From: a virus
Direction: 5' to 3' (one strand)
DNA: 64,000 nt
IMG/VR virus record: IMGVR_UViG_3300045988_010396
Span: 1 to 64,000 of that record
Shown: positions 4,861-48,131 of the stretch, one piece after another
How the letters are laid out: each line of letters starts with the position of its first letter
Numbering within the stretch: position 1 is the first letter of the stretch
The notes under the pieces: model-generated
The model's database searches: none
Told to the model about the DNA's origin: nothing
Seen by the model: the letters and a program-made list of their open reading frames with translations, nothing else
Translations under genes and position numbers: made by a program

Positions 4861-5624
4861 TACTCAAGTTGTTTAGCAAGGTTTGACTTAGAGTTTCTCC
4901 TCACAAAGTCTGCCAATGTAGCAAATTCATCCTTAGCATTATTCTCATCATCTTCAGGAGTATAAGAAGCACTCCTTAATTCCTTCACTACCATTTGAAT
5001 TAACTCTGGAATTAAAGGCTCTTCTATAGGAAACTCCTTATCAAGTAAATCACAGGTATCATCACTATTATCACATGACAGCTCAGACATCTTTTCAGCA
5101 TCCTCAAAAATAGCAGAGAATCTTACCTTTTCTAAATATAGGTATTGAGGATTCCATGACTTGAAGTACAGATAACCATCAGGTGCTATAGAACAGTAGA
5201 TGATATTCTTCATCCACTTATTATAGCCTACATATCTCATCCTGTCTCTGCTTATATATGTTATCTCACCTTGATAGTAATCTATAGGATATACCCTAGG
5301 ATTGCCTACCATTAGAGTAACAGGTATTTTATCTTTACTCCTCAAGTATGAGCCTCCTTCACATACTTCACCACTAATAGCTGGAACCTCTATAAGGTCT
5401 AAGCATATAGTCTGATAGTTACTCTCTGGTATCTGTCTTCTTATATCTGAATATCTTTGCTTTAATAATAGTGCTCTATATTTGCCTAATAGAAAAGCAA
5501 TGTGCTCCTCTGTATAAGTGAAATCATCTGATGAGCCTTTTATCTCATCAAGAACCATGTATATAGCTTCTCTCCACTTCATTATATCTGTATATAAATA
5601 ATTAAACCTATTGCAAAGATACAA
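4860..5624 (-). CDS. hypothetical virion protein
   Basis: 254-aa ORF in structural block. Confidence 0.5.
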   Translation of the reverse strand: MYLCNRFNYLYTDIMKWREAIYMVLDEIKGSSDDFTYTEEHIAFLLGKYRALLLKQRYSDIRRQIPESNYQTICLDLIEVPAISGEVCEGGSYLRSKDKIPVTLMVGNPRVYPIDYYQGEITYISRDRMRYVGYNKWMKNIIYCSIAPDGYLYFKSWNPQYLYLEKVRFSAIFEDAEKMSELSCDNSDDTCDLLDKEFPIEEPLIPELIQMVVKELRSASYTPEDDENNAKDEFATLADFVRRNSKSNLAKQLE

Positions 5625-40434: not shown

Positions 40435-40639
40435 AGTAAGTAAATGCGTGTTACTGTACGCAACAATCATATGCAGCATTCTGTTTATAACAGGTGGTGA
40501 CGCAATAATGTCAGTAGGTATTAAATACTTTCTGATATTTGGGTTAGTTTGTGTTGCTCTAATTTATCTATCTTATAAATTAATATCCAAGAAGGAGTTT
40601 GATTCCTTCACGGGATTTAACATTATAGATAAATTGTAG
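40427..40639 (+). CDS. small membrane protein (2 TM)
   Basis: 70 aa, two hydrophobic helices. Confidence 0.35.
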   Translation: MIKVSKCVLLYATIICSILFITGGDAIMSVGIKYFLIFGLVCVALIYLSYKLISKKEFDSFTGFNIIDKL

Positions 40640-40713
40640 TTGTAGATTGGGCTTTTCTGGTTCGTGAGAATAGGAAAAGACTTTTATAGTAAACAATTAA
40701 AAACAGATTAAAT

Positions 40714-41007
40714 ATGAGAATTATAGTAGTTTTTATATTTGCTTGCATTAGTCTTATAGCCAGTGCACAGCAATTCAAGCGTGAGGGTAATACCTTTGTG
40801 CAGGATACCACAAAAACTTTCAGAAAGTCTGAGGGTAAGGAGACCAAATACACCTACAAGGATAAGAATAATAAGGTATATCCTATATTCATTACCTCTT
40901 CTGGAGCTGTGTATATAAACAAAATATCAGCAAAGACAGGTAAGGAATACAGAATGTACCTTCCCAAGGGTATCAAGGAAGCTATTGCCAAGGAGATAAA
41001 GCAATGA
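40714..41007 (+). CDS. small secreted protein
   Basis: Signal peptide MRIIVVFIFACISLIASAQQ; basic mature part. Confidence 0.4.
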   Translation: MRIIVVFIFACISLIASAQQFKREGNTFVQDTTKTFRKSEGKETKYTYKDKNNKVYPIFITSSGAVYINKISAKTGKEYRMYLPKGIKEAIAKEIKQ

Positions 41008-41099
41008 TTATAACAATATTTGCTTGGCTATTTGTAATAGTTTGGGTATTAAAAATGAAAGACCAATGATAATACTTGGAATTTTAGAGATGATATTCT

Positions 41100-41396
41100 A
41101 TGGTTTTGGTACATTCTTGTTTTGTATCTTGCTATGGCATGTCTTTTTTAACGATAAATAAGATGTCTGAGCTTCTTGTTACAATCCTTAACAAACTAGG
41201 TTTGGGTAAAGGATGTAGAGTATACAACATATCTAACATGAAAAGATACATGTATGATGTGTTTGGAGACTCTATAAAGGTAGATATAATATCTCCTATA
41301 TCTGTCAGTCTTGAAGCAGGTAGTAATAAAATCATTATCACTTATGAGATAGTGAACAGTACGATAAAGAGTCTGACTATTAAAGAGGTGTTATAA
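41100..41396 (+). CDS. hypothetical protein
   Basis: 98-aa ORF. Confidence 0.35.
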   Translation: MVLVHSCFVSCYGMSFLTINKMSELLVTILNKLGLGKGCRVYNISNMKRYMYDVFGDSIKVDIISPISVSLEAGSNKIIITYEIVNSTIKSLTIKEVL

Positions 41397-41403
41397 ATGG
41401 CTC

Positions 41404-41489
41404 ACTCCCTTAGCTCAGTTGGTTCCGCAAGGCTTGAGAGCATCGGACTTTTAATCCGAGGGTCATGGGTTCGAGTCCCATAGGGAGTA
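41404..41489 (+). tRNA. tRNA-Lys(TTT) with an 11-nt insertion in the D-loop (86 nt)
   Basis: Acceptor actccct/agggagt, anticodon arm tcgga-cTTTTaa-tccga, T-arm atggg-TTCGAGT-cccat; D-region gctcagttggtt-CCGCAAGGctt-gagagc carries an extra cc-GCAA-gg mini-hairpin. Confidence 0.55.
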
Positions 41490-41506
41490 CTATTCATTTC
41501 ATTCAA

Positions 41507-41826
41507 GGGGCTGTATTTGGTCTTGACTGGTGGCTACTTGGTATGAGGACATGCAGAGACTGATGGAGAGACATCAAAACTTTAGGTGGCAACAGAATTT
41601 CTGCACCTGTAGCTCTTGCTGCTTAAGCAATCTACTGAGTTAGTCACTGACTTGGAAACAGAATAGTGACAAGACAAGATTTCTTGCATAGATAAATGCA
41701 AGTGGTGGACTATGTTGACAATCCAGTCAACCCCAGCAGAGAACCAACTGCATAATAAAGTGGTAAGCATGTGTAATCCTTATATTGAGAGCTATTAGGA
41801 CAGGGGTTCGACTCCCCTCAGCTCCA
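41507..41826 (+). ncRNA. ssrA: tmRNA (ssrA-like), tag reading frame ending ...SAPVALAA-stop
   Basis: 5' end GGGGCUGUAUUUGGUCUUGAC matches the E. coli tmRNA 5' end GGGGCUGAUUCUGGAUUCGAC. 3' end ..GGUAAGCAUGUGUAAUCC..GGACAGGGGUUCGACUCCCCUCAGCUCCA matches ..CUAAGCAUGUAGUACC..GGACGCGGGUUCAACUCCCGCCAGCUCCA. Internal ORF ggt ggc aac aga att tct gca cct gta gct ctt gct gct taa (stop 41624..41626). Confidence 0.8.
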
Positions 41827-41902
41827 GAGGCACGTTGTTAGATACTTCCACGTAGTGTGCCTTGGGTTAAAAGCTAGATTCTAACAAAAAAAAAAAGATT
41901 AT

Positions 41903-42205
41903 ATGTTAATAACAGAAAGAGCAAAAAGGAAAATAAATACTTTATTAGATAGTACTAATGATTGTATAAACTATCCTAAAACTAATAAAGATGGTTATGG
42001 GGATATTCAAGAGATTGTGGAGGGTAAAAAGCTCCACATGTTAGCTCATAGAGTATCTTATCAGTTATATACAGGAGAAGACATATCACCTGATGATATA
42101 ATATGTCATAGATGTGATAATCCTGCTTGTATTAATCCTAGACATTTGTTCAGAGGCACTCACTCAGATAATATTAAAGATAAGGTTTGTACCCATTATT
42201 CATAA
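41903..42205 (+). CDS. HNH homing endonuclease (HNH_3 type)
   Basis: KDGYGDIQ...[11 protein letters not shown]...[24 protein letters not shown]. Confidence 0.6.
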
Positions 42206-42501
42206 GCGGTCGTAGCATAATTAGCGGTGACGCGGTAGTGGAATCCAATTACGACTATATTGTTTTCAAGAACTGGTGGTCATCAGGAAGATACTTTACA
42301 TGGACTAGAAGCAATGATATGTGGTGTGTTGGATGCTTCTACGGCACGGGCAAGGAGCTAATCGCTAAAGCCTACAAGGACAGCAAGGTGAGTGGTAGAG
42401 AGTATGAGAGAATAGTCAAATATGTAGAGCGGATTAAGAGAGACAGCAAGCCATCTTTGTGGCGGAGAATACTGTTTAATCTTAGCAAGCTCTGCAAATA
42501 G
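42187..42501 (+). CDS. hypothetical protein
   Basis: 104-aa ORF. Confidence 0.35.
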
Positions 42502-42523
42502 TATAAAATTAAACTACATCAGA

Positions 42524-42805
42524 ATGGCAAAGATTGTAAACAATGACAAGGGGTTCAAGGTAATCAGCTTGTCAACAGAGGATGCAGCATCTCTGGGCTT
42601 TGGTATAGATGGCTCAGGTACATGTATATGTATGCATTGTAATAAGGGGTGCCGTAGTGGAGACATCTATTACATTGCAGTGCTTCATGACACTATGTGC
42701 AAGAAGTGCTATGAGAGGTGGATTAAGTCTGCTACAAGGTATGCAGAAGATATACCCATTGAAAATAGGAACTTCAACCACTATAAGGAGTGGCTGTGTC
42801 TGTGA
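42524..42805 (+). CDS. Cys-rich zinc-binding protein
   Basis: CICMHCNKGC...CKKC. Confidence 0.35.
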   Translation: MAKIVNNDKGFKVISLSTEDAASLGFGIDGSGTCICMHCNKGCRSGDIYYIAVLHDTMCKKCYERWIKSATRYAEDIPIENRNFNHYKEWLCL

Positions 42806-43005
42806 TTATTCTTATATTGTAGTGTACTATGTATTTCAAAGAAGATGAACCAATAAGAGTGCTTATGACAACACCTCTTCCTGACCCCTACTTATAAGGG
42901 CAGTTATTGGTACTAAAGTTAAATTTATGTTAAAGGTAGGTCATTTGTTTGGTAATATCAAACTTTTGACTTACCTTTGCGGTGTTCAATTAAACAACAG
43001 AGATT

Positions 43006-44429
43006 ATGTGTTCAAAAGTTAATCCTAACCTAAAGCCTGTACCTAAGTTTGAAAACACTCAACTGGCAGGTGGTTATGGTGCATTAGCTGCCAGGCAGTC
43101 CAATGTAGCATTGCTTAGAAGAGCAGTGCTGGCTAATCTCCTTTGAGAGGATGTAGCATATATGGATGGTGAGAGAGTAGCCAATGAAATACAGAGGTTA
43201 ATACCTCTGTGCCCTGCTGAGGATGTATATAATATAGCTCTTGAAGCTAGGTTAATGCAGAAACTGAGGCATACTCCATTGTTTATAGCAGTGGAAATGT
43301 GCAAGTATCCTGAACATAAGTTATTTGTTAAGGACTTGCTACCAAAGATAGTTACAAGAGCTGATATGCTCACTGACTTCTTGGCTATATATATATATAT
43401 TGGAAGGATGGCAAGCATCCTATCTGTAACCAAGCTAAGAAGGGTCTTGCTCTAGCCTTCCACAACTTCAATGAGTATAAGTTGGCTAAGTATGACAGAG
43501 ATGCTGCTATCAAGCTCAGGGATGTGATGTTCTTGGTACATGCAAAGCCTAGAAACCAGTATGAGCAGGAGTTGTTCAATAAGGTAGCTGAGAGAACTCT
43601 CACACCACCTGAGACATGGGAAGTCATGTTAAGTAGAGGTGATGACAAGAAGGCTACTTGGACTAAGCTCATTACAGAGGGTAAGATTGGAGGTCTGGCT
43701 ATGTTGAGAAACATAGCTAATATGCAGAAGGCCAATGTGGATAGAAGGACTATCCAAGATGGCCTTAAGACACTGAGAAGCTCAATGCTATTACCTCTTG
43801 ACTTCTGGAAGGCTGCTAGAATGAACCCAGCATTTGAGAGAGACATTGAGGATGCTATGATAGAGGCATATAAGAACTTACCTAAACTTCCTGGCAAGAC
43901 ACTATTTATAGTGGATGTATCAGGTTCTATGGGTTTTTTAACCTCTGGTAGCTCTCAGTTCAACAGGATGGACCAAGCTTGTGCTATGGCTATCTTGGCA
44001 GCTAATCAGTGTGAGGACTATGAGCTTGTAGCTACAGCAGGTAATGATGATTCTAAAATAAGTGCCTCAGAGTGGATTGAATATCCAAAGAGAGGTTTTG
44101 CTCTTGCTCCACAGATAATGGATACCAGGCATAGGATTAGTGGTGGAGGTATATTCACCAGGCAGTGCCTAGAGTGGTGTAAGGATAAGTTCAAAGACAA
44201 GAAGTTTGATAGAATTATCATATTCTCAGACTCTCAAGACTGTGACTATCCTGAGAAGAGAGTACCTAAACCATTTGGTACATATAACTATATTGTAGAT
44301 GTATCTGCTCATACAAGAGGAGTGAACTACAAGGGTGTATGGACTGCTGAGGTTTCAGGCTGGTCAGAACATTTCTTGACTTATATTGCAGCTCTTGAGG
44401 GATTGCAGAATAAGTTTGAGGAGCAATAA
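43006..44429 (+). pseudogene. rsr: Ro60/Rsr-like protein (TROVE + vWA/MIDAS), interrupted by an in-frame TGA (43144..43146) and a frame change at (TA)7 (43386..43399)
   Basis: Frame 1 from ATG 43006 reads MCSKVNPNLKPVPKFENTQLAGGYGALAARQSNVALLRRAVLANLL-TGA-EDVAYMDGERVANEIQRLI..., resembling the Ro60 N-terminus (RLHRFL.FGSEGGTYY...ALIRLI). After the TA tract the open frame becomes frame 0 (..GKHPICNQAKKGLALAFHNF..), continuing through GLAMLRNIANM to the MIDAS motif LFIVDVSGSMG and stop at 44429. Track ORFs 43162..43455 and 43482..44429 are fragments of this gene. Confidence 0.6.
43386..43399. repeat. (TA)7 dinucleotide repeat at the frame junction of the Ro60-like gene
   Basis: tatatatatatata read directly; loss of one TA unit would fuse the two reading frames. 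Confidence 0.9.
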
Positions 44430-44581
44430 ATAAAAAGAGCCTATAAGTGAAAGTCAGAGTTACTTCAATATTGGGATATTTTGACACTCTGACAAAGTGT
44501 TCTATAGGCTTTTAAGCTCTTCTATAGTTAGAAAGAGTTTCGAGACCCGATTGCCTTTGATGCATCTCGGGTCTTGCGATG

Positions 44582-44715
44582 GAGGAGTTAGCTCAGAGGT
44601 TAGAGCAGTTAAACAAGACACTCTACATACTGTTCTCTAGTAATAGTAGTGATTTGTAGAGATACTTCAAGCACTTTCATTGCACAGGTCATAGGTTCGA
44701 GTCCTATACTCCTCC
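44582..44715 (+). ncRNA. tRNA-like RNA 1 with ~60-nt internal insertion; candidate Y-RNA-like tRNA mimic
   Basis: Perfect acceptor gaggagt/actcctc, canonical D-arm gctc-agaggtta-gagc and T-arm atagg-TTCGAGT-cctat, but no consistent anticodon arm. Insertion carries a 7-bp hairpin ctctaca/tgtagag and motifs agtagtg and tacttcaag. Confidence 0.5.
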
Positions 44716-44779
44716 CAACTTTGTTGGATTTTGTGTGTTTTACCTCACTGGTATGTGAATATAGGTGAGGTTTTTACAA

Positions 44780-44918
44780 GGCGGAGTAGCTAAATGGTTA
44801 AAGCAACACCCTTACAGAATTTATCTGGTAAAGCAGTAGTGGGTTGTCAGGGTTACTTCAAGGTTATAGCATTAGTTTTGGGTGCTAAAGAATGTAAGTT
44901 CGAGTCTTACCTCCGCCA
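44780..44918 (+). ncRNA. tRNA-like RNA 2 with ~65-nt internal insertion; candidate Y-RNA-like tRNA mimic
   Basis: Acceptor ggcggag/ctccgcc, D-arm gcta-aatggtta-aagc, T-arm gtaag-TTCGAGT-cttac; internal motifs tctggtaaagcagtagtg and ttacttcaag shared with RNA 3. Confidence 0.5.
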
Positions 44919-45127
44919 CTTATTTACCTACCTCACCTAGCATAGTTATACAGGATAAGACCCATTATGATGGAGCACCGATGAAACTATCCTAGCCACG
45001 CTGGTATTGCTATTCAGTGAGTGAGAAAATGAATAGCCTCGAAGCATAGTGGAGATAACGTCAAGGAGTACCATCCTTAGCAGCTATGTAAAATTGGTTG
45101 ACAATCTGGAAAGACAGATAATAAAAT

Positions 45128-45255
45128 GGGGGAGTAGCTAAATTGGTTACTATACTCTTGCTGTTATTCTCTGGAAGCAGTAGTGTTAGCAAAGAGTTAC
45201 TTCAAGCATTCATCTGGTAAATGAAAGTATATTGGTTCGAGTCCAATCTCCCCCG
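45128..45255 (+). ncRNA. tRNA-like RNA 3 with ~55-nt internal insertion; candidate Y-RNA-like tRNA mimic
   Basis: Acceptor gggggag/ctccccc, T-arm attgg-TTCGAGT-ccaat; motifs tctggaagcagtagtg and ttacttcaag; possible anticodon-like arm ttcat-cTGGTaa-atgaa near the 3' side. Confidence 0.5.
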
Positions 45256-45457
45256 CAAAATAGAGGTTAGTGAATGTTACAGTTACTTCAATTATGATTA
45301 GTATATTGGTTTAACATTCAATCAAGAAAGGAGTAGATTTATTCACAACTTTTTTAACTCAACCCAACTGTGGCAGAGTTGTTCTACCTCTATTAAGAGG
45401 GCTATGGTAGTAATACTATAGTCCTCTTTCTTTTTGAAATTGTGTTAGCTACATATA

Positions 45458-45874
45458 TTGTATTACTTAAAAAAAAAAAGTATGGCAAAAACAAATGAAA
45501 GTGTCGGGAGAGTCGAGGACTTGAAGGCACAAGTGAAGGACCTTCTAGGCTTAGATGCCATGATGGATGAGAGTGTGACTAAGGAAATGAAGGACGAACT
45601 TATCGCTCAGGCTAAGAACAAAGGTGATAAGCACATCGAAGAGGTGATGGACACCATTGAGAAGGCACTTGAGAAGGTTAAGGACCCTGAGTTCAAGGCT
45701 ATCATCGCCTCTATCATATGGACTAAGTGTCCTATAGGTATGCAGAAGTCCTGCATTGAGTTTCACAACAAGCTGTTGTGTGTTGCGATGGCTGCTCATA
45801 TGGATAAGCAGACTAAGGGTAATTCCCTTGCAGGTCTTGCACTGCTGTCAACTGTACTTGGAGATAAGAGATAA
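45458..45874 (+). CDS. hypothetical protein (real start probably ATG 45482, after an A11 tract)
   Basis: 138-aa ORF; ttaaaaaaaaaaag precedes MAKTNES. Confidence 0.4.
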   Translation: MYYLKKKSMAKTNESVGRVEDLKAQVKDLLGLDAMMDESVTKEMKDELIAQAKNKGDKHIEEVMDTIEKALEKVKDPEFKAIIASIIWTKCPIGMQKSCIEFHNKLLCVAMAAHMDKQTKGNSLAGLALLSTVLGDKR

Positions 45875-45880
45875 ACTGAA

Positions 45881-46252
45881 ATGAGTGAAATCAAGGTGAG
45901 TGTCAGTATTACACTACAAGGTGGTGTAATGCTGACCCAAGCTGAGGCTGAACAGCTTGAGAAGAACAAAGTAGGCACTGGTTATGACCTGACTAGAGTC
46001 AAGGTTAAGGACAAGGAGGGTAATGCTGATGTCCTCAACGTGAGAACTAGGAAGTCCAGAACTGCCACACAGACCATAAGCATGTACAAAGAGGCTTATG
46101 AGTACATGACAAGTAAGGATAGCTGTCCTACCAGTATCAAGCAGTATGTATGGGCTAAGATGAAGCCAGTACAGAGATTGGAGGTACATCTTAACTTGGT
46201 ATGTAAGCACCTCGGGGGCATCTCCTACACCTATAAGGTATTTGATGATTGA
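45881..46252 (+). CDS. hypothetical protein
   Basis: 123-aa ORF. Confidence 0.4.
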   Translation: MSEIKVSVSITLQGGVMLTQAEAEQLEKNKVGTGYDLTRVKVKDKEGNADVLNVRTRKSRTATQTISMYKEAYEYMTSKDSCPTSIKQYVWAKMKPVQRLEVHLNLVCKHLGGISYTYKVFDD

Positions 46253-47345: not shown

Positions 47346-48131
47346 GTGAAAAGTAAATTGATTTTGGGACTTCTGTTCTCGTTTATGATGTTCTCCATGA
47401 CATCCTGTATGGAGAAGGTAGATGCTGGTTGTGAGGGCATCAAGGTGAATCTGTATGGTAGCGATAAGGGAGTAGATGATGCTTCCCTAGTAACTGGTAT
47501 TGTATGGTACAACCCCTGGACCACTACAGTATATGAGTACCCCACCTATGTACAGACCATTGACTATGAGCCATTCACTATCAATGCTAAGGATGGTTCT
47601 GAGTTCACTGTAGACCCTACTGTGTCATTGAAGATTATTGATGGCAAATCACCTGCTGTCTTCAAGAAGTACAGAAAAGAATTGAATGAGGTAATCAAGG
47701 GTACTCTGTATAACTATGTGAAGGATGCCTTTAGAATCCAGTTGAACAAGTTCACCACTGATGACATTGTGAGCAAGAGGGATAGCATTGAGAGTGCTAT
47801 TGAGAGATATTTGACTCAAGCACTTGCCAAAGAGAACTTCCAATTGGAACAGCTCACTTCTGGATTGAAGTACCCCCAAACCATTGTAGAGTCTGTGAAT
47901 GCTAAGAATAAGGCTATACAGCAGGCCATGCAGGTAGAGAATGAGGTCAAGGTAGCAGAGGCCCAAGCCAAGAAGCTCATTGTAGCTGCTGAGGCAGAGA
48001 AGAAAGCCAATGAATTAAGACAACAGGCTCTTACTCCAGCTATTCTTGAGAAGATGTGGATTGAGAAATGGGATGGTAAGCTTCCTGTGTATGGTCAAGT
48101 GCCTACTATATTCAAGGATATTAGTAAGTAA
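47346..48131 (+). CDS. SPFH/band-7 (prohibitin/HflC-like) lipoprotein
   Basis: Lipoprotein signal LLFSFMMFSMTSC followed by an SPFH-like core and an Ala/Lys/Glu-rich helix (VKVAEAQAKKLIVAAEAEKKANELRQQA). Confidence 0.45.
   Translation: MKSKLILGLLFSFMMFSMTSCMEKVDAGCEGIKVNLYGSDKGVDDASLVTGIVWYNPWTTTVYEYPTYVQTIDYEPFTINAKDGSEFTVDPTVSLKIIDGKSPAVFKKYRKELNEVIKGTLYNYVKDAFRIQLNKFTTDDIVSKRDSIESAIERYLTQALAKENFQLEQLTSGLKYPQTIVESVNAKNKAIQQAMQVENEVKVAEAQAKKLIVAAEAEKKANELRQQALTPAILEKMWIEKWDGKLPVYGQVPTIFKDISK

What the first reader, a model, noticed from the sequence alone, without database searches (positions are those of the whole stretch)
43006..45300. Ro60/Rsr-like gene followed by three tandem tRNA-like RNAs with conserved internal insertions (candidate Y-RNA-like tRNA mimics)
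The protein has TROVE-like N-terminal and central segments and a vWA/MIDAS C-terminus (DVSGSM), the architecture of Ro60/Rsr. Bacterial and phage Ro60 orthologs are typically encoded next to Y RNAs, and the best-studied bacterial Y RNAs (YrlA) mimic tRNA. Immediately downstream lie three 128-139-nt RNAs. Each has a perfect 7-bp acceptor stem, canonical D- and T-arms, and a 55-65-nt insertion where the anticodon arm should be. The insertions share motifs (tctgg(ta)aagcagtagtg, ttacttcaag) in rearranged order. No consistent anticodon helix could be derived, which argues against simple intron-containing tRNAs.
Basis: partly seen in the sequence, partly recalled or inferred. Interest (0 to 1): 0.85.

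Follow-up and report, generated by a model that had tools for sequence, protein, structure and literature searches.

The report
Phage tRNAs carrying a Y-RNA stem
Downstream of a broken Ro60-like gene, this crAss-like gut phage encodes three complete tRNAs that each carry, at a different position, the stem that Y RNAs are thought to use to bind Ro60, plus two ordinary Y-like RNAs; this is a new way of joining a tRNA to a Y RNA.

Summary
The gene at 43006-44429 is a TROVE/vWA (Ro60-like) gene. In this genome it is inactivated by a TGG>TGA nonsense codon and a +8-nt (TA)n expansion; close relatives have it intact.

The three RNAs (44582-44715, 44780-44918, 45128-45255) do not lack an anticodon arm. 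Removing 61, 66 and 53 nt gives perfect cloverleaf tRNAs: Glu(UUC), Pro(UGG) and Thr(GGU). The inserts sit at three different sites: anticodon stem, D-loop and D-stem.

The insert is a two-helix element with strong covariation. A covariance model built only from in-silico circular permutations of Y-like RNAs that flank TROVE genes in unrelated phages picks out exactly these three inserts in the 64-kb window (E 2e-10 to 3e-4).

That RNA family occurs in 76 of 80 TROVE loci, always on the TROVE strand.

Orthologous chimeras keep the tRNA body but change the anticodon loop. My reading is tRNA-shaped Y RNAs of a new topology. Removal of the insert as an intron cannot be excluded.

The parts
43006..44429 (+). 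TROVE + vWA (Ro60-like) gene, inactivated in this genome: nonsense TGA at 43144-43146 (Trp47 in relatives) and a (TA)7 run at 43386-43399 (+8 nt, frameshift)
44436..44513 (+). Free-standing Y-like RNA 1: outer helix AGCCTATA/TATAGGCT, internal loop AGTG.. / ..TGTTCT, inner helix GTCAGAG/CTCTGAC, loop starting GTTACTTC
   Evidence: Model R2 44.7 bits, E 3e-10; minimum-free-energy fold reproduces the helices, z = -2.8
44582..44715 (+). tRNA-Glu(UUC) body (exons 44582-44609 and 44671-44715, with a G-1:C73 extra pair) carrying the Y-stem insert
   Evidence: ARAGORN on the spliced sequence; Rfam tRNA 43.4 bits with a 74-nt insertion
44610..44670 (+). 61-nt Y-stem module inserted between nt 28 and 29 of the anticodon stem
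   Evidence: R1 66.8 bits; R3 (permuted Y RNA model from unrelated phages) 48.7 bits, E 2e-10
44742..44775 (+). Hairpin ACCTCAC...GTGAGGT followed by TTTTT, between RNA1 and RNA2 (terminator-like; read directly from the sequence)
   Evidence: sequence; not reported by the scan because the loop exceeds 8 nt
44780..44918 (+). tRNA-Pro(UGG) body (exons 44780-44795 and 44862-44918) carrying the Y-stem insert. The junction is ambiguous by 5 nt (GGTTA repeated). A 10-nt imperfect direct repeat GGTTAAAGCA/GGTTATAGCA flanks the insert
44796..44861 (+). 66-nt Y-stem module inserted in the D-loop (about nt 16/17)
   Evidence: R1 53.9 bits; R3 25.2 bits, E 3.4e-4
45098..45127 (+). Sigma-70-like promoter match (TTGACA-18-TAAAAT) abutting RNA3; a consensus match only
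45128..45255 (+). tRNA-Thr(GGU) body (exons 45128-45152 and 45206-45255) carrying the Y-stem insert
   Evidence: partial Rfam tRNA match of 27.9 bits over the anticodon and T arms
45153..45205 (+). 53-nt Y-stem module inserted in the 3' strand of the D-stem (TA|GC)
   Evidence: R1 71.2 bits; R3 34.1 bits, E 1.4e-6; fold z = -3.25
45259..45395 (+). Free-standing Y-like RNA 2: outer helix ATAGAGGT/ACCTCTAT, inner helix TGTTACAG/CTGTGGCA, about 78-nt loop starting GTTACTTC
   Evidence: R2 38.4 bits, E 1.9e-8; fold z = -2.9
45395..45428 (+). Intrinsic-terminator-like hairpin (15 bp) plus T run that closes the RNA array
47346..48131 (+). SPFH/Band-7 protein gene, about 2 kb downstream (context; same position as crAss001 gp91)
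   Evidence: Pfam Band_7 1.1e-22

Best explanation
The locus is a Ro60 (TROVE) / Y-RNA cassette of a crAss-like phage (Kehishuvirus relatives). It holds five RNA genes on the TROVE strand: two ordinary stem-loop Y-like RNAs and, between them, three chimeras. Each chimera is a full, canonical tRNA into which the Y-RNA stem has been grafted as an extra arm.

The stem module reads, 5' to 3': an A-rich linker; helix P1; UGUUC(U/C); a 2-bp CU/AG or CC/GG step with a 1-nt bulge; helix P2; GUG-UAG; P1'; GUUACUUC. In the chimeras the module is circularly permuted relative to free Y RNAs. P2 is capped by a small loop, and P1 opens into the tRNA.

INFERRED MECHANISM. The module is the docking site for the phage Ro60 homologue. 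The chimeras therefore act like YrlA-type Y RNAs, tethering a tRNA-shaped domain to Ro60 or presenting it to tRNA-binding partners early in infection. The anticodon loop is not used for ordinary decoding in all lineages.

SHOWN: the anatomy, the homology of the insert to TROVE-linked Y stems, the covariation, the linkage to TROVE, and the variability of the anticodon among orthologues.

INFERRED, NOT SHOWN: Ro60 binding, retention of the insert in the mature RNA, and the biological role.

In this particular genome the Ro60 gene is dead while all five RNAs are intact.
For: (1) Removing the inserts gives perfect cloverleaves.
(2) The insert has two helices with compensatory changes: 89.7% of cells paired against 70.5% in shuffles (0/500), and covariation score 0.554 against 0.211. 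The P2 helix shows 8 different pair combinations. The CU/AG step covaries with CC/GG.
(3) Model R3 was built only from in-silico permuted Y-like RNAs of non-crAss TROVE loci. Its top three hits in the 64-kb window are the three inserts: 48.7, 34.1 and 25.2 bits, with the next hit at 14 bits.
(4) Model R2 (unpermuted) finds exactly two further RNAs, and they flank the chimeras.
(5) R2 finds 165 hits in 76 of 80 diverse TROVE loci. All are on the TROVE strand, clustered within a few hundred nt of the gene. RNAalifold finds 16 of 17 pairs with compensatory changes.
(6) Every topology linking this stem to a tRNA shape exists. YrlA-like: L098. Stem in place of the anticodon arm: L222. Stem enclosing a whole tRNA: L039, L130, L145. 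Stem inside D-loop, D-stem, anticodon stem or anticodon loop.
(7) Orthologues keep the tRNA body and the module but change the anticodon loop. Examples are GGU/GAU/CAU/UUU in one body and UUC/UUU/GCU/GUG in another, and three swapped anticodon-arm cassettes in crAss001 relatives. By my reading, about one third of distinct module-bearing tRNAs have loops lacking U33 or 8-9 nt long.
(8) G-U pairs occur in the helices on this strand, which argues for an RNA-level structure.
(9) Published precedent: Y RNAs lie next to Ro60 in bacteria and phages, YrlA mimics tRNA (PMC4201824; 10.1101/312249), and a phage Ro60 binds neighbouring Y-like RNAs (PMC12135203).
Against: No Rfam Y_RNA or YrlA hit exists in the window even at E<=10. 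Related free-standing RNAs do not reach the YrlA gathering score.

The inserts interrupt helices (D-stem, anticodon stem), and the exons are perfectly canonical. All three loops in this window have U33 and R37. That is what one expects if the insert is removed to make working tRNAs.

The insertion position varies. A fixed ribonucleoprotein geometry would not predict that.

The TROVE gene here is a pseudogene although the RNAs are intact, so the RNAs do not strictly need a cis-encoded Ro60.

In large phage contigs the same modules sit in tRNA arrays with no TROVE gene within the 4-14 kb fetched.

No expression or binding data were available.
Confidence: 0.6

Rival explanations
1. The inserts are a new kind of small (about 50-65 nt) intervening sequence in phage tRNA genes. 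After transcription they are cut out and the tRNA halves are rejoined, giving functional tRNA-Glu, tRNA-Pro and tRNA-Thr. The Y-like stem, possibly with the Ro60 homologue, host RNases and a ligase, serves as the handle for processing or quality control.
For: Clean in-silico junctions give perfect cloverleaves with canonical anticodon loops. The inserts lie at four or more different tRNA positions, including inside helices, as expected if position does not matter because the insert is removed. No uninterrupted copy of these tRNAs exists in the fetched relatives, and tRNA-Glu is not otherwise encoded in the window. When the same stem encloses a whole tRNA, the tRNA ends coincide with the same two module boundaries. 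crAss001 encodes Pnkp-like end-healing enzymes gp60 and gp61. Ro60 operons are linked to RtcB ligase in bacteria (10.1101/312249).
Against: No bacterial or phage machinery is known for such introns. I saw no bulge-helix-bulge motif, and there is no group I or group II signature (size; Rfam). The distance from the conserved GUUACUUC to exon 2 varies from 0 to about 9 nt, so the module does not fix the cut site. The same module is a stand-alone RNA in 76 of 80 TROVE loci. About one third of orthologues have anticodon loops unfit for decoding. No RNA ligase was seen in the part of crAss001 I listed.
Confidence: 0.27
2. The module is a small self-cleaving ribozyme that occurs in permuted forms, as hammerhead and twister ribozymes do. 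It processes the polycistronic RNA array, cutting next to GUUACUUC.
For: It is a compact two-helix core with invariant single-stranded nucleotides. It occurs in circular permutations and in multiple copies in phage tRNA regions, a pattern typical of self-cleaving ribozymes. Exon 2 often starts 2 nt after GUUACUUC.
Against: There is no match to any Rfam ribozyme family at E<=10. The linkage to TROVE genes in gene order and strand is explained better by a protein partner. A single cleavage would destroy the tRNA rather than release it. The junction offset is variable.
Confidence: 0.05
3. The inserts are footprints of a DNA-level mobile element, or of illegitimate recombination between Y-RNA genes and tRNA genes. 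They have no function of their own, and the interrupted tRNAs are decaying pseudogenes.
For: An imperfect 10-nt direct repeat flanks the RNA2 insert. Insertion sites vary. Anticodon arms are swapped as cassettes among crAss001 relatives. Some orthologues have aberrant anticodon loops.
Against: Insert positions are conserved between phages only about 73% identical in DNA. Compensatory changes, including G-U pairs valid only on the transcribed strand, maintain the helices. The tRNA bodies stay perfectly paired. All copies share one strand with TROVE.
Confidence: 0.05

Closest known systems
YrlA (Rfam RF02553), the tRNA-mimicking bacterial Y RNA encoded next to Rsr/Ro60 (Chen et al. 2014, PMC4201824; Wang et al. 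2018, 10.1101/312249)
   Same: Encoded beside a Ro60/TROVE gene on the same strand. Modular: a long stem with an internal loop (the presumed Ro60 site) plus a tRNA-shaped domain with D and T arms. A UGUUCC-like strand is present in the Rfam consensus stem. Relatives of the window's RNAs (L098, L229, L231 and others) have the YrlA order: stem, T arm, capped acceptor hairpin, D arm, stem.
   Different: In the window the topology is inverted. The RNA ends are in a normal open acceptor stem, and the Y stem is capped and inserted as an extra arm. A complete anticodon arm is retained, and the insertion site differs between the three RNAs. No Rfam YrlA hit at E<=10.
YrlB and phage phiLo Yrl1/Yrl2: simple stem-bulge-stem Y-like RNAs next to Ro60 (PMC12135203)
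   Same: The two free-standing RNAs (44436-44513, 45259-45395) are stem, internal loop, stem hairpins flanking a phage Ro60 homologue. The phage Ro60 of PDB 9L5Y aligns with the window protein over residues 25-466.
   Different: The conserved motifs differ: GUG-UAG / GUUACUUC / UGUUC(U/C) here, against the 'CGAA' motif described for phiLo. Binding is untested here.
[quoted passage not shown]
   Same: An authentic-looking tRNA encoded with RNA-repair-type genes, sometimes next to Rsr. A Band-7/SPFH gene lies about 2 kb downstream here.
   Different: No RtcB was seen in the window. The original description could not be read, and nothing is known about inserts in b7a-tRNA.
Archaeal non-canonical tRNA introns and permuted or split tRNA genes (bulge-helix-bulge dependent)
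   Same: Short insertions at many positions of tRNA genes (D-loop, D-stem, anticodon stem) whose removal restores a cloverleaf. Permuted arrangements exist.
   Different: This is a bacterial virus. No BHB motif can be drawn at the junctions, no splicing endonuclease is known in the host lineage, and the insert is a conserved, protein-linked RNA module that also exists on its own.

Membership tests
YrlA / Y RNA (Rfam RF02553, RF00019) | Encoded adjacent to, and on the strand of, a Ro60/TROVE gene | tested here: met
   All five RNAs lie 7-970 nt downstream of the TROVE gene on the + strand. The family is TROVE-linked in 76 of 80 loci, with 165 of 165 hits on the same strand.
YrlA / Y RNA (Rfam RF02553, RF00019) | Scores at or above the Rfam gathering threshold | tested here: not met
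   No Y_RNA or YrlA hit at E<=10 in 40500-46000. The best relative, L098, scores 30.8 bits against a gathering score of 69. None of 20 TROVE loci passes.
YrlA / Y RNA (Rfam RF02553, RF00019) | The 5' and 3' ends pair to form the long Ro60-binding stem | tested here: not met
   For the three chimeras the ends lie in the tRNA acceptor stem and the Y stem is capped. The feature is met for the two free-standing RNAs.
YrlA / Y RNA (Rfam RF02553, RF00019) | tRNA-like domain in the order T arm, closed acceptor hairpin, D arm, without an anticodon loop | tested here: not met
   The window RNAs have the normal tRNA order, an open acceptor stem and a full anticodon arm.
YrlA / Y RNA (Rfam RF02553, RF00019) | Bound by Ro60 | not testable with these tools
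   Needs EMSA or RIP with the TROVE protein (for example crAss001 gp96).
Canonical tRNA (RF00005) | Cloverleaf with 7-bp acceptor stem, D arm, 5-bp/7-nt anticodon arm and T arm | tested here: met
   ARAGORN on the spliced sequences calls Glu(ttc), Pro(tgg) and Thr(ggt). RNA1 reaches Rfam tRNA 43.4 bits against a gathering score of 29 even with its insert.
Canonical tRNA (RF00005) | Contiguous gene, or an intron of a known type | tested here: not met
   53-66-nt inserts in the D-loop, D-stem and anticodon stem. No group I or group II match. ARAGORN on the raw sequence misses RNA1 and RNA3 and miscalls part of RNA2.
Canonical tRNA (RF00005) | Anticodon conserved among orthologues (decoding identity) | tested here: not met
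   The same tRNA bodies carry GGU/GAU/CAU/UUU, UUC/UUU/GCU/GUG, or swapped cassettes. Some loops lack U33 or are 8-9 nt long.
Canonical tRNA (RF00005) | Aminoacylated and used in translation | not testable with these tools
   Needs acid-gel Northern blots or tRNA-seq.
Ro60/TROVE protein | TROVE (HEAT-repeat ring) domain | tested here: met
   Pfam PF05731 43.3 bits against a cut-off of 23. phrog_850 2.9e-33. Alignment to phage Ro60 9L5Y over residues 25-466. All on the repaired translation.
Ro60/TROVE protein | C-terminal vWA domain with a MIDAS motif | tested here: inconclusive
   DVSGSM is present and aligned to 9L5Y, but Pfam vWA_Ro60 scores 19.2 bits, below its cut-off of 27.7.
Ro60/TROVE protein | Intact open reading frame | tested here: not met
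   TGA at codon 47 and a +8-nt (TA)n frameshift, compared with intact relatives.
Known self-cleaving ribozymes / group I-II introns | Match to an Rfam model | tested here: not met
   No such family at E<=10 in 40500-46000.
Archaeal-type BHB tRNA intron | Bulge-helix-bulge motif at the two junctions | tested here: not met
   By inspection of the junction sequences, no 4-bp helix between the intron 5' end and exon 2 can be drawn. No dedicated BHB search tool was run.

The most novel reading that the evidence does not exclude
The Y-RNA stem is a portable cis-acting handle that large Bacteroidota phages attach to their own tRNAs, either around them, inside them or beside them. A Ro60-type ring protein (phage or host) would then act on those tRNAs. 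Two forms of this reading remain open. In one, it is a protein-guided excision and ligation pathway, which would be the first non-group-I tRNA 'intron' system in bacteria or phages. In the other, the chimeras are anticodon-loop decoys or sensors in the arms race with host anticodon nucleases, which would explain why only the anticodon loop changes between close relatives.
Probability: 0.2. Interest if true: 0.85.

Novelty: new variant of a known kind. Interest (0 to 1): 0.62.

Why it matters
Y RNAs and Ro60 are conserved from bacteria to humans, yet what the tRNA-like half of bacterial Y RNAs is for remains open. Here the same Ro60-linked stem is joined to tRNA shapes in every possible topology, including insertion into otherwise perfect tRNAs. 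This suggests that physical linkage of a tRNA to the Ro60 site is what is selected.

The system occurs in crAss001, a cultured member of the most abundant human gut phage group. Its TROVE gene is an early gene (PMC8375218), so the idea can be tested directly.

It also has a practical consequence. These genes are invisible to standard tRNA finders and absent from the crAss001 annotation, so phage tRNA and ncRNA inventories are incomplete. The same modules are scattered through tRNA arrays of 100-435-kb phage contigs.

Tried and rejected
(1) Stop-codon recoding (TGA=Trp) as an explanation for the broken TROVE gene. Rejected: the window reads densely in the standard code, 9 of 35 long ORFs end in TGA, and a frameshift is also present.

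(2) Rfam Y_RNA, YrlA, ribozyme and intron families. Nothing was found in the window. YrlA appears only as a sub-threshold hit in a relative.

(3) The first pattern scans of IMG/VR gave mostly chance hits inside ORFs. They were filtered by requiring the P1 helix.

(4) IS200/IS605-like reading of TTAC...TCAA as transposon ends. Dropped: the conserved motif is really GUUACUUC, strand-linked to TROVE, and lies in a covarying RNA structure.

(5) Pseudoknot between the P2 loop (GUAA or GAAG) and UUACUUC. This is possible but rests only on GNRA-like loops, so I did not pursue it.

(6) Search for uninterrupted orthologues of the three tRNAs to fix the junctions. None were found in the fetched loci.

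(7) Whether the large phage contigs that carry modules in tRNA arrays encode TROVE elsewhere could not be tested. Only 4-14 kb per contig was available, and the protein-based scan keeps only the best 80 loci.

(8) The Burroughs and Aravind 2016 paper and the Sim/Wolin reviews are not in the library.

(9) An automatic listing of anticodon loops was noisy. The counts of aberrant loops are from my reading.
Full report
WHAT THE WINDOW IS. The 64-kb window is a phage genome segment with dense standard-code ORFs. It carries a 17-tRNA array on the minus strand (33.3-36.3 kb) and a tmRNA. DNA similarity places the flagged region among Kehishuvirus crAss-like phages: Bacteroides phage crAss001 and its relatives, about 73% identity. 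In those phages the homologous gene is annotated 'TROVE domain-containing protein'.

THE PROTEIN. Frame analysis shows the gene at 43006-44429 is broken. There is an in-frame TGA at 43144-43146, and the reading frame changes inside a (TA)7 run at 43386-43399. Four close relatives (up to 95.8% amino-acid identity) have TGG and (TA)3 at these places and an uninterrupted ORF of about 471 codons. TGA terminates 9 of 35 long ORFs in the window, so this is a nonsense mutation and not recoding. The repaired translation matches Pfam TROVE (3.7e-11) and PHROG 850 (2.9e-33). It aligns end to end with the Ro60 homologue of Thermus phage phiLo (PDB 9L5Y/9KOP, 4.6e-13), including DVSGSM. The Pfam Ro60-vWA model stays below its cut-off.

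THE THREE RNAs. Rfam's tRNA model spans RNA1 (44582-44715) at 43.4 bits with a 74-nt insertion. It finds the anticodon-plus-T-arm halves of RNA2 and RNA3 just below threshold. That already contradicts 'no anticodon arm'.

Deleting 44610-44670, 44796-44861 and 45153-45205 gives sequences that ARAGORN folds as flawless tRNA-Glu(UUC), tRNA-Pro(UGG) and tRNA-Thr(GGU). The inserts lie between nt 28/29 of the anticodon stem, in the D-loop, and within the 3' strand of the D-stem. Minimum-free-energy folds of the full RNAs show the acceptor stem, the T arm, the anticodon arm (in RNA2 and RNA3) and the insert as a separate hairpin.

ANATOMY OF THE INSERT. I aligned nineteen different inserts from the window, crAss001, cr112_1 and IMG/VR contigs with few gaps. 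They share this layout: an A-rich 5' linker; helix P1 (8-9 bp); xUGUUC(U/C); a 2-bp step CU/AG or CC/GG followed by a 1-nt bulge; a 3-bp helix P2 closed by a GNRA-like loop; GUG plus 2-3 nt; the P1 return strand; and GUUACUUC.

On this alignment 89.7% of cells are paired, against 70.5 +/- 1.8% in shuffles (0/500) and 28-52% with slid partners. The covariation score is 0.554 against 0.211. P2 occurs in eight pair combinations, and the UA/CG alternation of the 2-bp step is perfect. Model R1, built from this alignment, finds nothing else in the window above 14 bits.

LINK TO Y RNAs. Hairpins outside the tRNAs carry the same strands in circularly permuted order: P2a, (U)AGUG, P1a, GUUACUUC, loop, P1b, UGUUCU, P2b.

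Using a TROVE protein alignment I fetched 80 diverse TROVE-encoding viral contigs (38-100% identity to one of them). Short RNAs of this layout flank the TROVE genes there. From 18 of them, all non-crAss, RNAalifold recovers P2, the GG/CC step and P1, with compensatory changes in 16 of 17 pairs.

Model R2, built from these 18, gives exactly two significant hits in the window: 44436-44513 (44.7 bits, E 3e-10) and 45259-45395 (38.4 bits, E 1.9e-8). The next hit scores 9.9 bits. Across the 80 loci R2 gives 165 hits at E<=1e-3. All are on the TROVE strand, in 76 of 80 loci, clustered just upstream or downstream of the gene.

For the decisive test I permuted those same 18 RNAs in silico and kept 16 of them for the alignment and model. 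Each permuted sequence is the 3' half, then GAAA, then the 5' half, with P2 trimmed to 3 bp. I built model R3 from them. In the whole window, with filters off, its three best hits are the three inserts: 48.7 bits (E 2e-10), 34.1 bits (1.4e-6) and 25.2 bits (3.4e-4). The next hit scores 14 bits. The inserts are therefore permuted copies of the stem of TROVE-linked Y-like RNAs.

A FAMILY OF tRNA/Y-STEM FUSIONS.
- In many TROVE loci the loop of the stem holds an anticodon-like hairpin, a T arm, a GNRA-capped acceptor-like hairpin and a D arm. This is the YrlA layout. L098 4656-4768 matches Rfam YrlA over its full length at 30.8 bits, below the gathering score of 69. None of 20 loci passes the gathering score.
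- In L222 the stem sits between the D and T arms of an RNA with an open acceptor stem.
- In L039/L021, L130 and L145 the stem encloses an entire tRNA.
- The inserted form occurs in the crAss-like loci. It also occurs, several copies per locus, in tRNA arrays of 39-435-kb phage contigs, where free-standing copies are interspersed too. No TROVE gene lies within those 4-14-kb pieces. Whether one exists elsewhere in those genomes is untested.

BEHAVIOUR OF THE tRNA PART. Among five close orthologues of RNA3, 68 exon positions outside the anticodon loop contain one variable site, while the 7-nt loop contains three: CUGGUAA, CUGAUAA, CUCAUAA and CGUUUAA (hypergeometric p about 0.002).

RNA1 orthologues share one body with a G-1:C73 pair but carry UUC, UUU, GCU or GUG. 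RNA2 orthologues include UGG, UUG and an 8-nt loop. In crAss001 relatives, exon 1, the module and the D arm are invariant, while the anticodon arm, variable loop and T stem come in three discrete cassettes. crAss001's own 'A' RNA has a 9-nt loop. By my reading, about a third of distinct module-bearing tRNAs lack U33 or have 8-9-nt loops.

The distance from GUUACUUC to the first exon-2 nucleotide ranges from 0 to about 9 nt. No uninterrupted close homologue was found.

INTERPRETATION. The identity of the insert as a Y-RNA stem is well supported; I put it near 0.9. What happens to it in the cell is not known.

I favour (0.6) stable chimeras that work like YrlA, that is, a tRNA-shaped domain tied to the Ro60 docking stem. 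Three observations lead me there. The stem also exists as an independent RNA. Every fusion topology occurs. The anticodon loop behaves as unconstrained or diversifying rather than as a decoding element.

The main rival (about 0.27) is that the stem is removed as a new type of intervening sequence. The perfect exons, the interruption of helices and the variable insertion sites fit that view. The variable offset of the junction and the lack of any known machinery argue against it.

A self-cleaving ribozyme and a functionless DNA-level insertion are each unlikely (about 0.05). For the ribozyme there is no Rfam match, and the TROVE linkage points to a protein partner. For the DNA-level insertion, compensatory and G-U pairs are maintained on one strand.

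The dead TROVE gene next to five intact RNAs shows that the RNAs can persist, at least briefly, without the cis-encoded protein.

CONTEXT. A terminator-like hairpin closes the array at 45395-45428, and a sigma-70-like promoter match abuts RNA3. An SPFH/Band-7 gene lies at 47346-48131, as in crAss001 (gp91). According to 10.1101/312249, which cites Burroughs and Aravind 2016, Band-7 genes accompany an authentic-looking 'b7a-tRNA' and RtcB in predicted RNA-repair systems, sometimes with Rsr. crAss001 also encodes Pnkp-like gp60 and gp61, and its TROVE gene is expressed early (PMC8375218).

I found no paper describing Y RNAs or interrupted tRNAs in crAss-like phages. The 900-nt region is unannotated in crAss001.

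VERDICT. It is a new topological variant of the known Ro60/Y-RNA/tRNA-mimic theme, in a cultured and abundant gut phage. Interest 0.62.

Noticed in passing
window 41404-41489: A tRNA-Lys(UUU)-like gene (Rfam tRNA 66.3 bits) has a 14-nt insertion in its D-loop that forms a GNRA-capped mini-hairpin (CCGCAAGG). ARAGORN cannot assign it. crAss001 and cr112_1 carry 91-nt 'tRNA-OTHER/Ile' genes at the equivalent place.
   Followed up: partly
window 41507-41829: Phage-encoded tmRNA (Rfam 83.1 bits; ARAGORN tag peptide ASGGLC*) lies immediately after that odd tRNA. An HNH endonuclease ORF (41903-42205) lies between it and the TROVE gene.
   Followed up: no
window 43386-43399: A (TA)7 dinucleotide run lies inside the TROVE gene where relatives have (TA)3. 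A slippage-prone repeat causing the frameshift could be phase variation, a fixed lesion or an assembly error.
   Followed up: partly
window 44919-45127: A roughly 208-nt spacer between RNA2 and RNA3 matches none of the three RNA models or Rfam. The sequence CTGGAAAGACAG just upstream of RNA3 recurs before module-bearing tRNAs in relatives (L009, L254).
   Followed up: no
window 47346-48131: An SPFH/Band-7 gene lies 2 kb downstream of the RNA array (Pfam 1.1e-22). The position is conserved in Kehishuvirus relatives, and one unrelated TROVE locus (L246) also has one. This recalls the predicted Band-7/b7a-tRNA/RtcB repair systems.
   Followed up: partly
L058 (crAss001) 5050-5190; L059, L068, L112: In crAss001 relatives the D-loop-interrupted tRNA keeps an identical 5' part and module, but its anticodon arm, variable loop and T stem occur as three discrete cassettes. 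This looks like recombinational swapping rather than point mutation.
   Followed up: partly
L222 2690-2815: An RNA with an open 7-bp acceptor stem, D arm and T arm in which the Y stem occupies the anticodon-arm position. It is an exact circular permutation of YrlA, upstream of a TROVE gene in a non-crAss contig.
   Followed up: partly
L130 1293-1441; L145 7934-8077; L039 1683-1825: Y-like stems formed by the 5' leader and 3' trailer of complete tRNA genes (Cys, Ser, Lys-like), within phage tRNA arrays. In L039 the acceptor 5' strand overlaps the GUUACUUC motif.
   Followed up: partly
L080, L167, L143, L173, L179/L130, L145, L062: tRNA arrays of 39-435-kb phage contigs contain 2-5 module-interrupted tRNAs each, plus free-standing Y-like RNAs, with no TROVE gene in the fetched 4-14 kb. 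Standard tRNA finders skip these genes.
   Followed up: partly
L098/L181-L185, L187: The TROVE genes of these contigs sit inside large tRNA arrays that also encode permuted tmRNA (Rfam tmRNA_permuted up to 115.6 bits).
   Followed up: no
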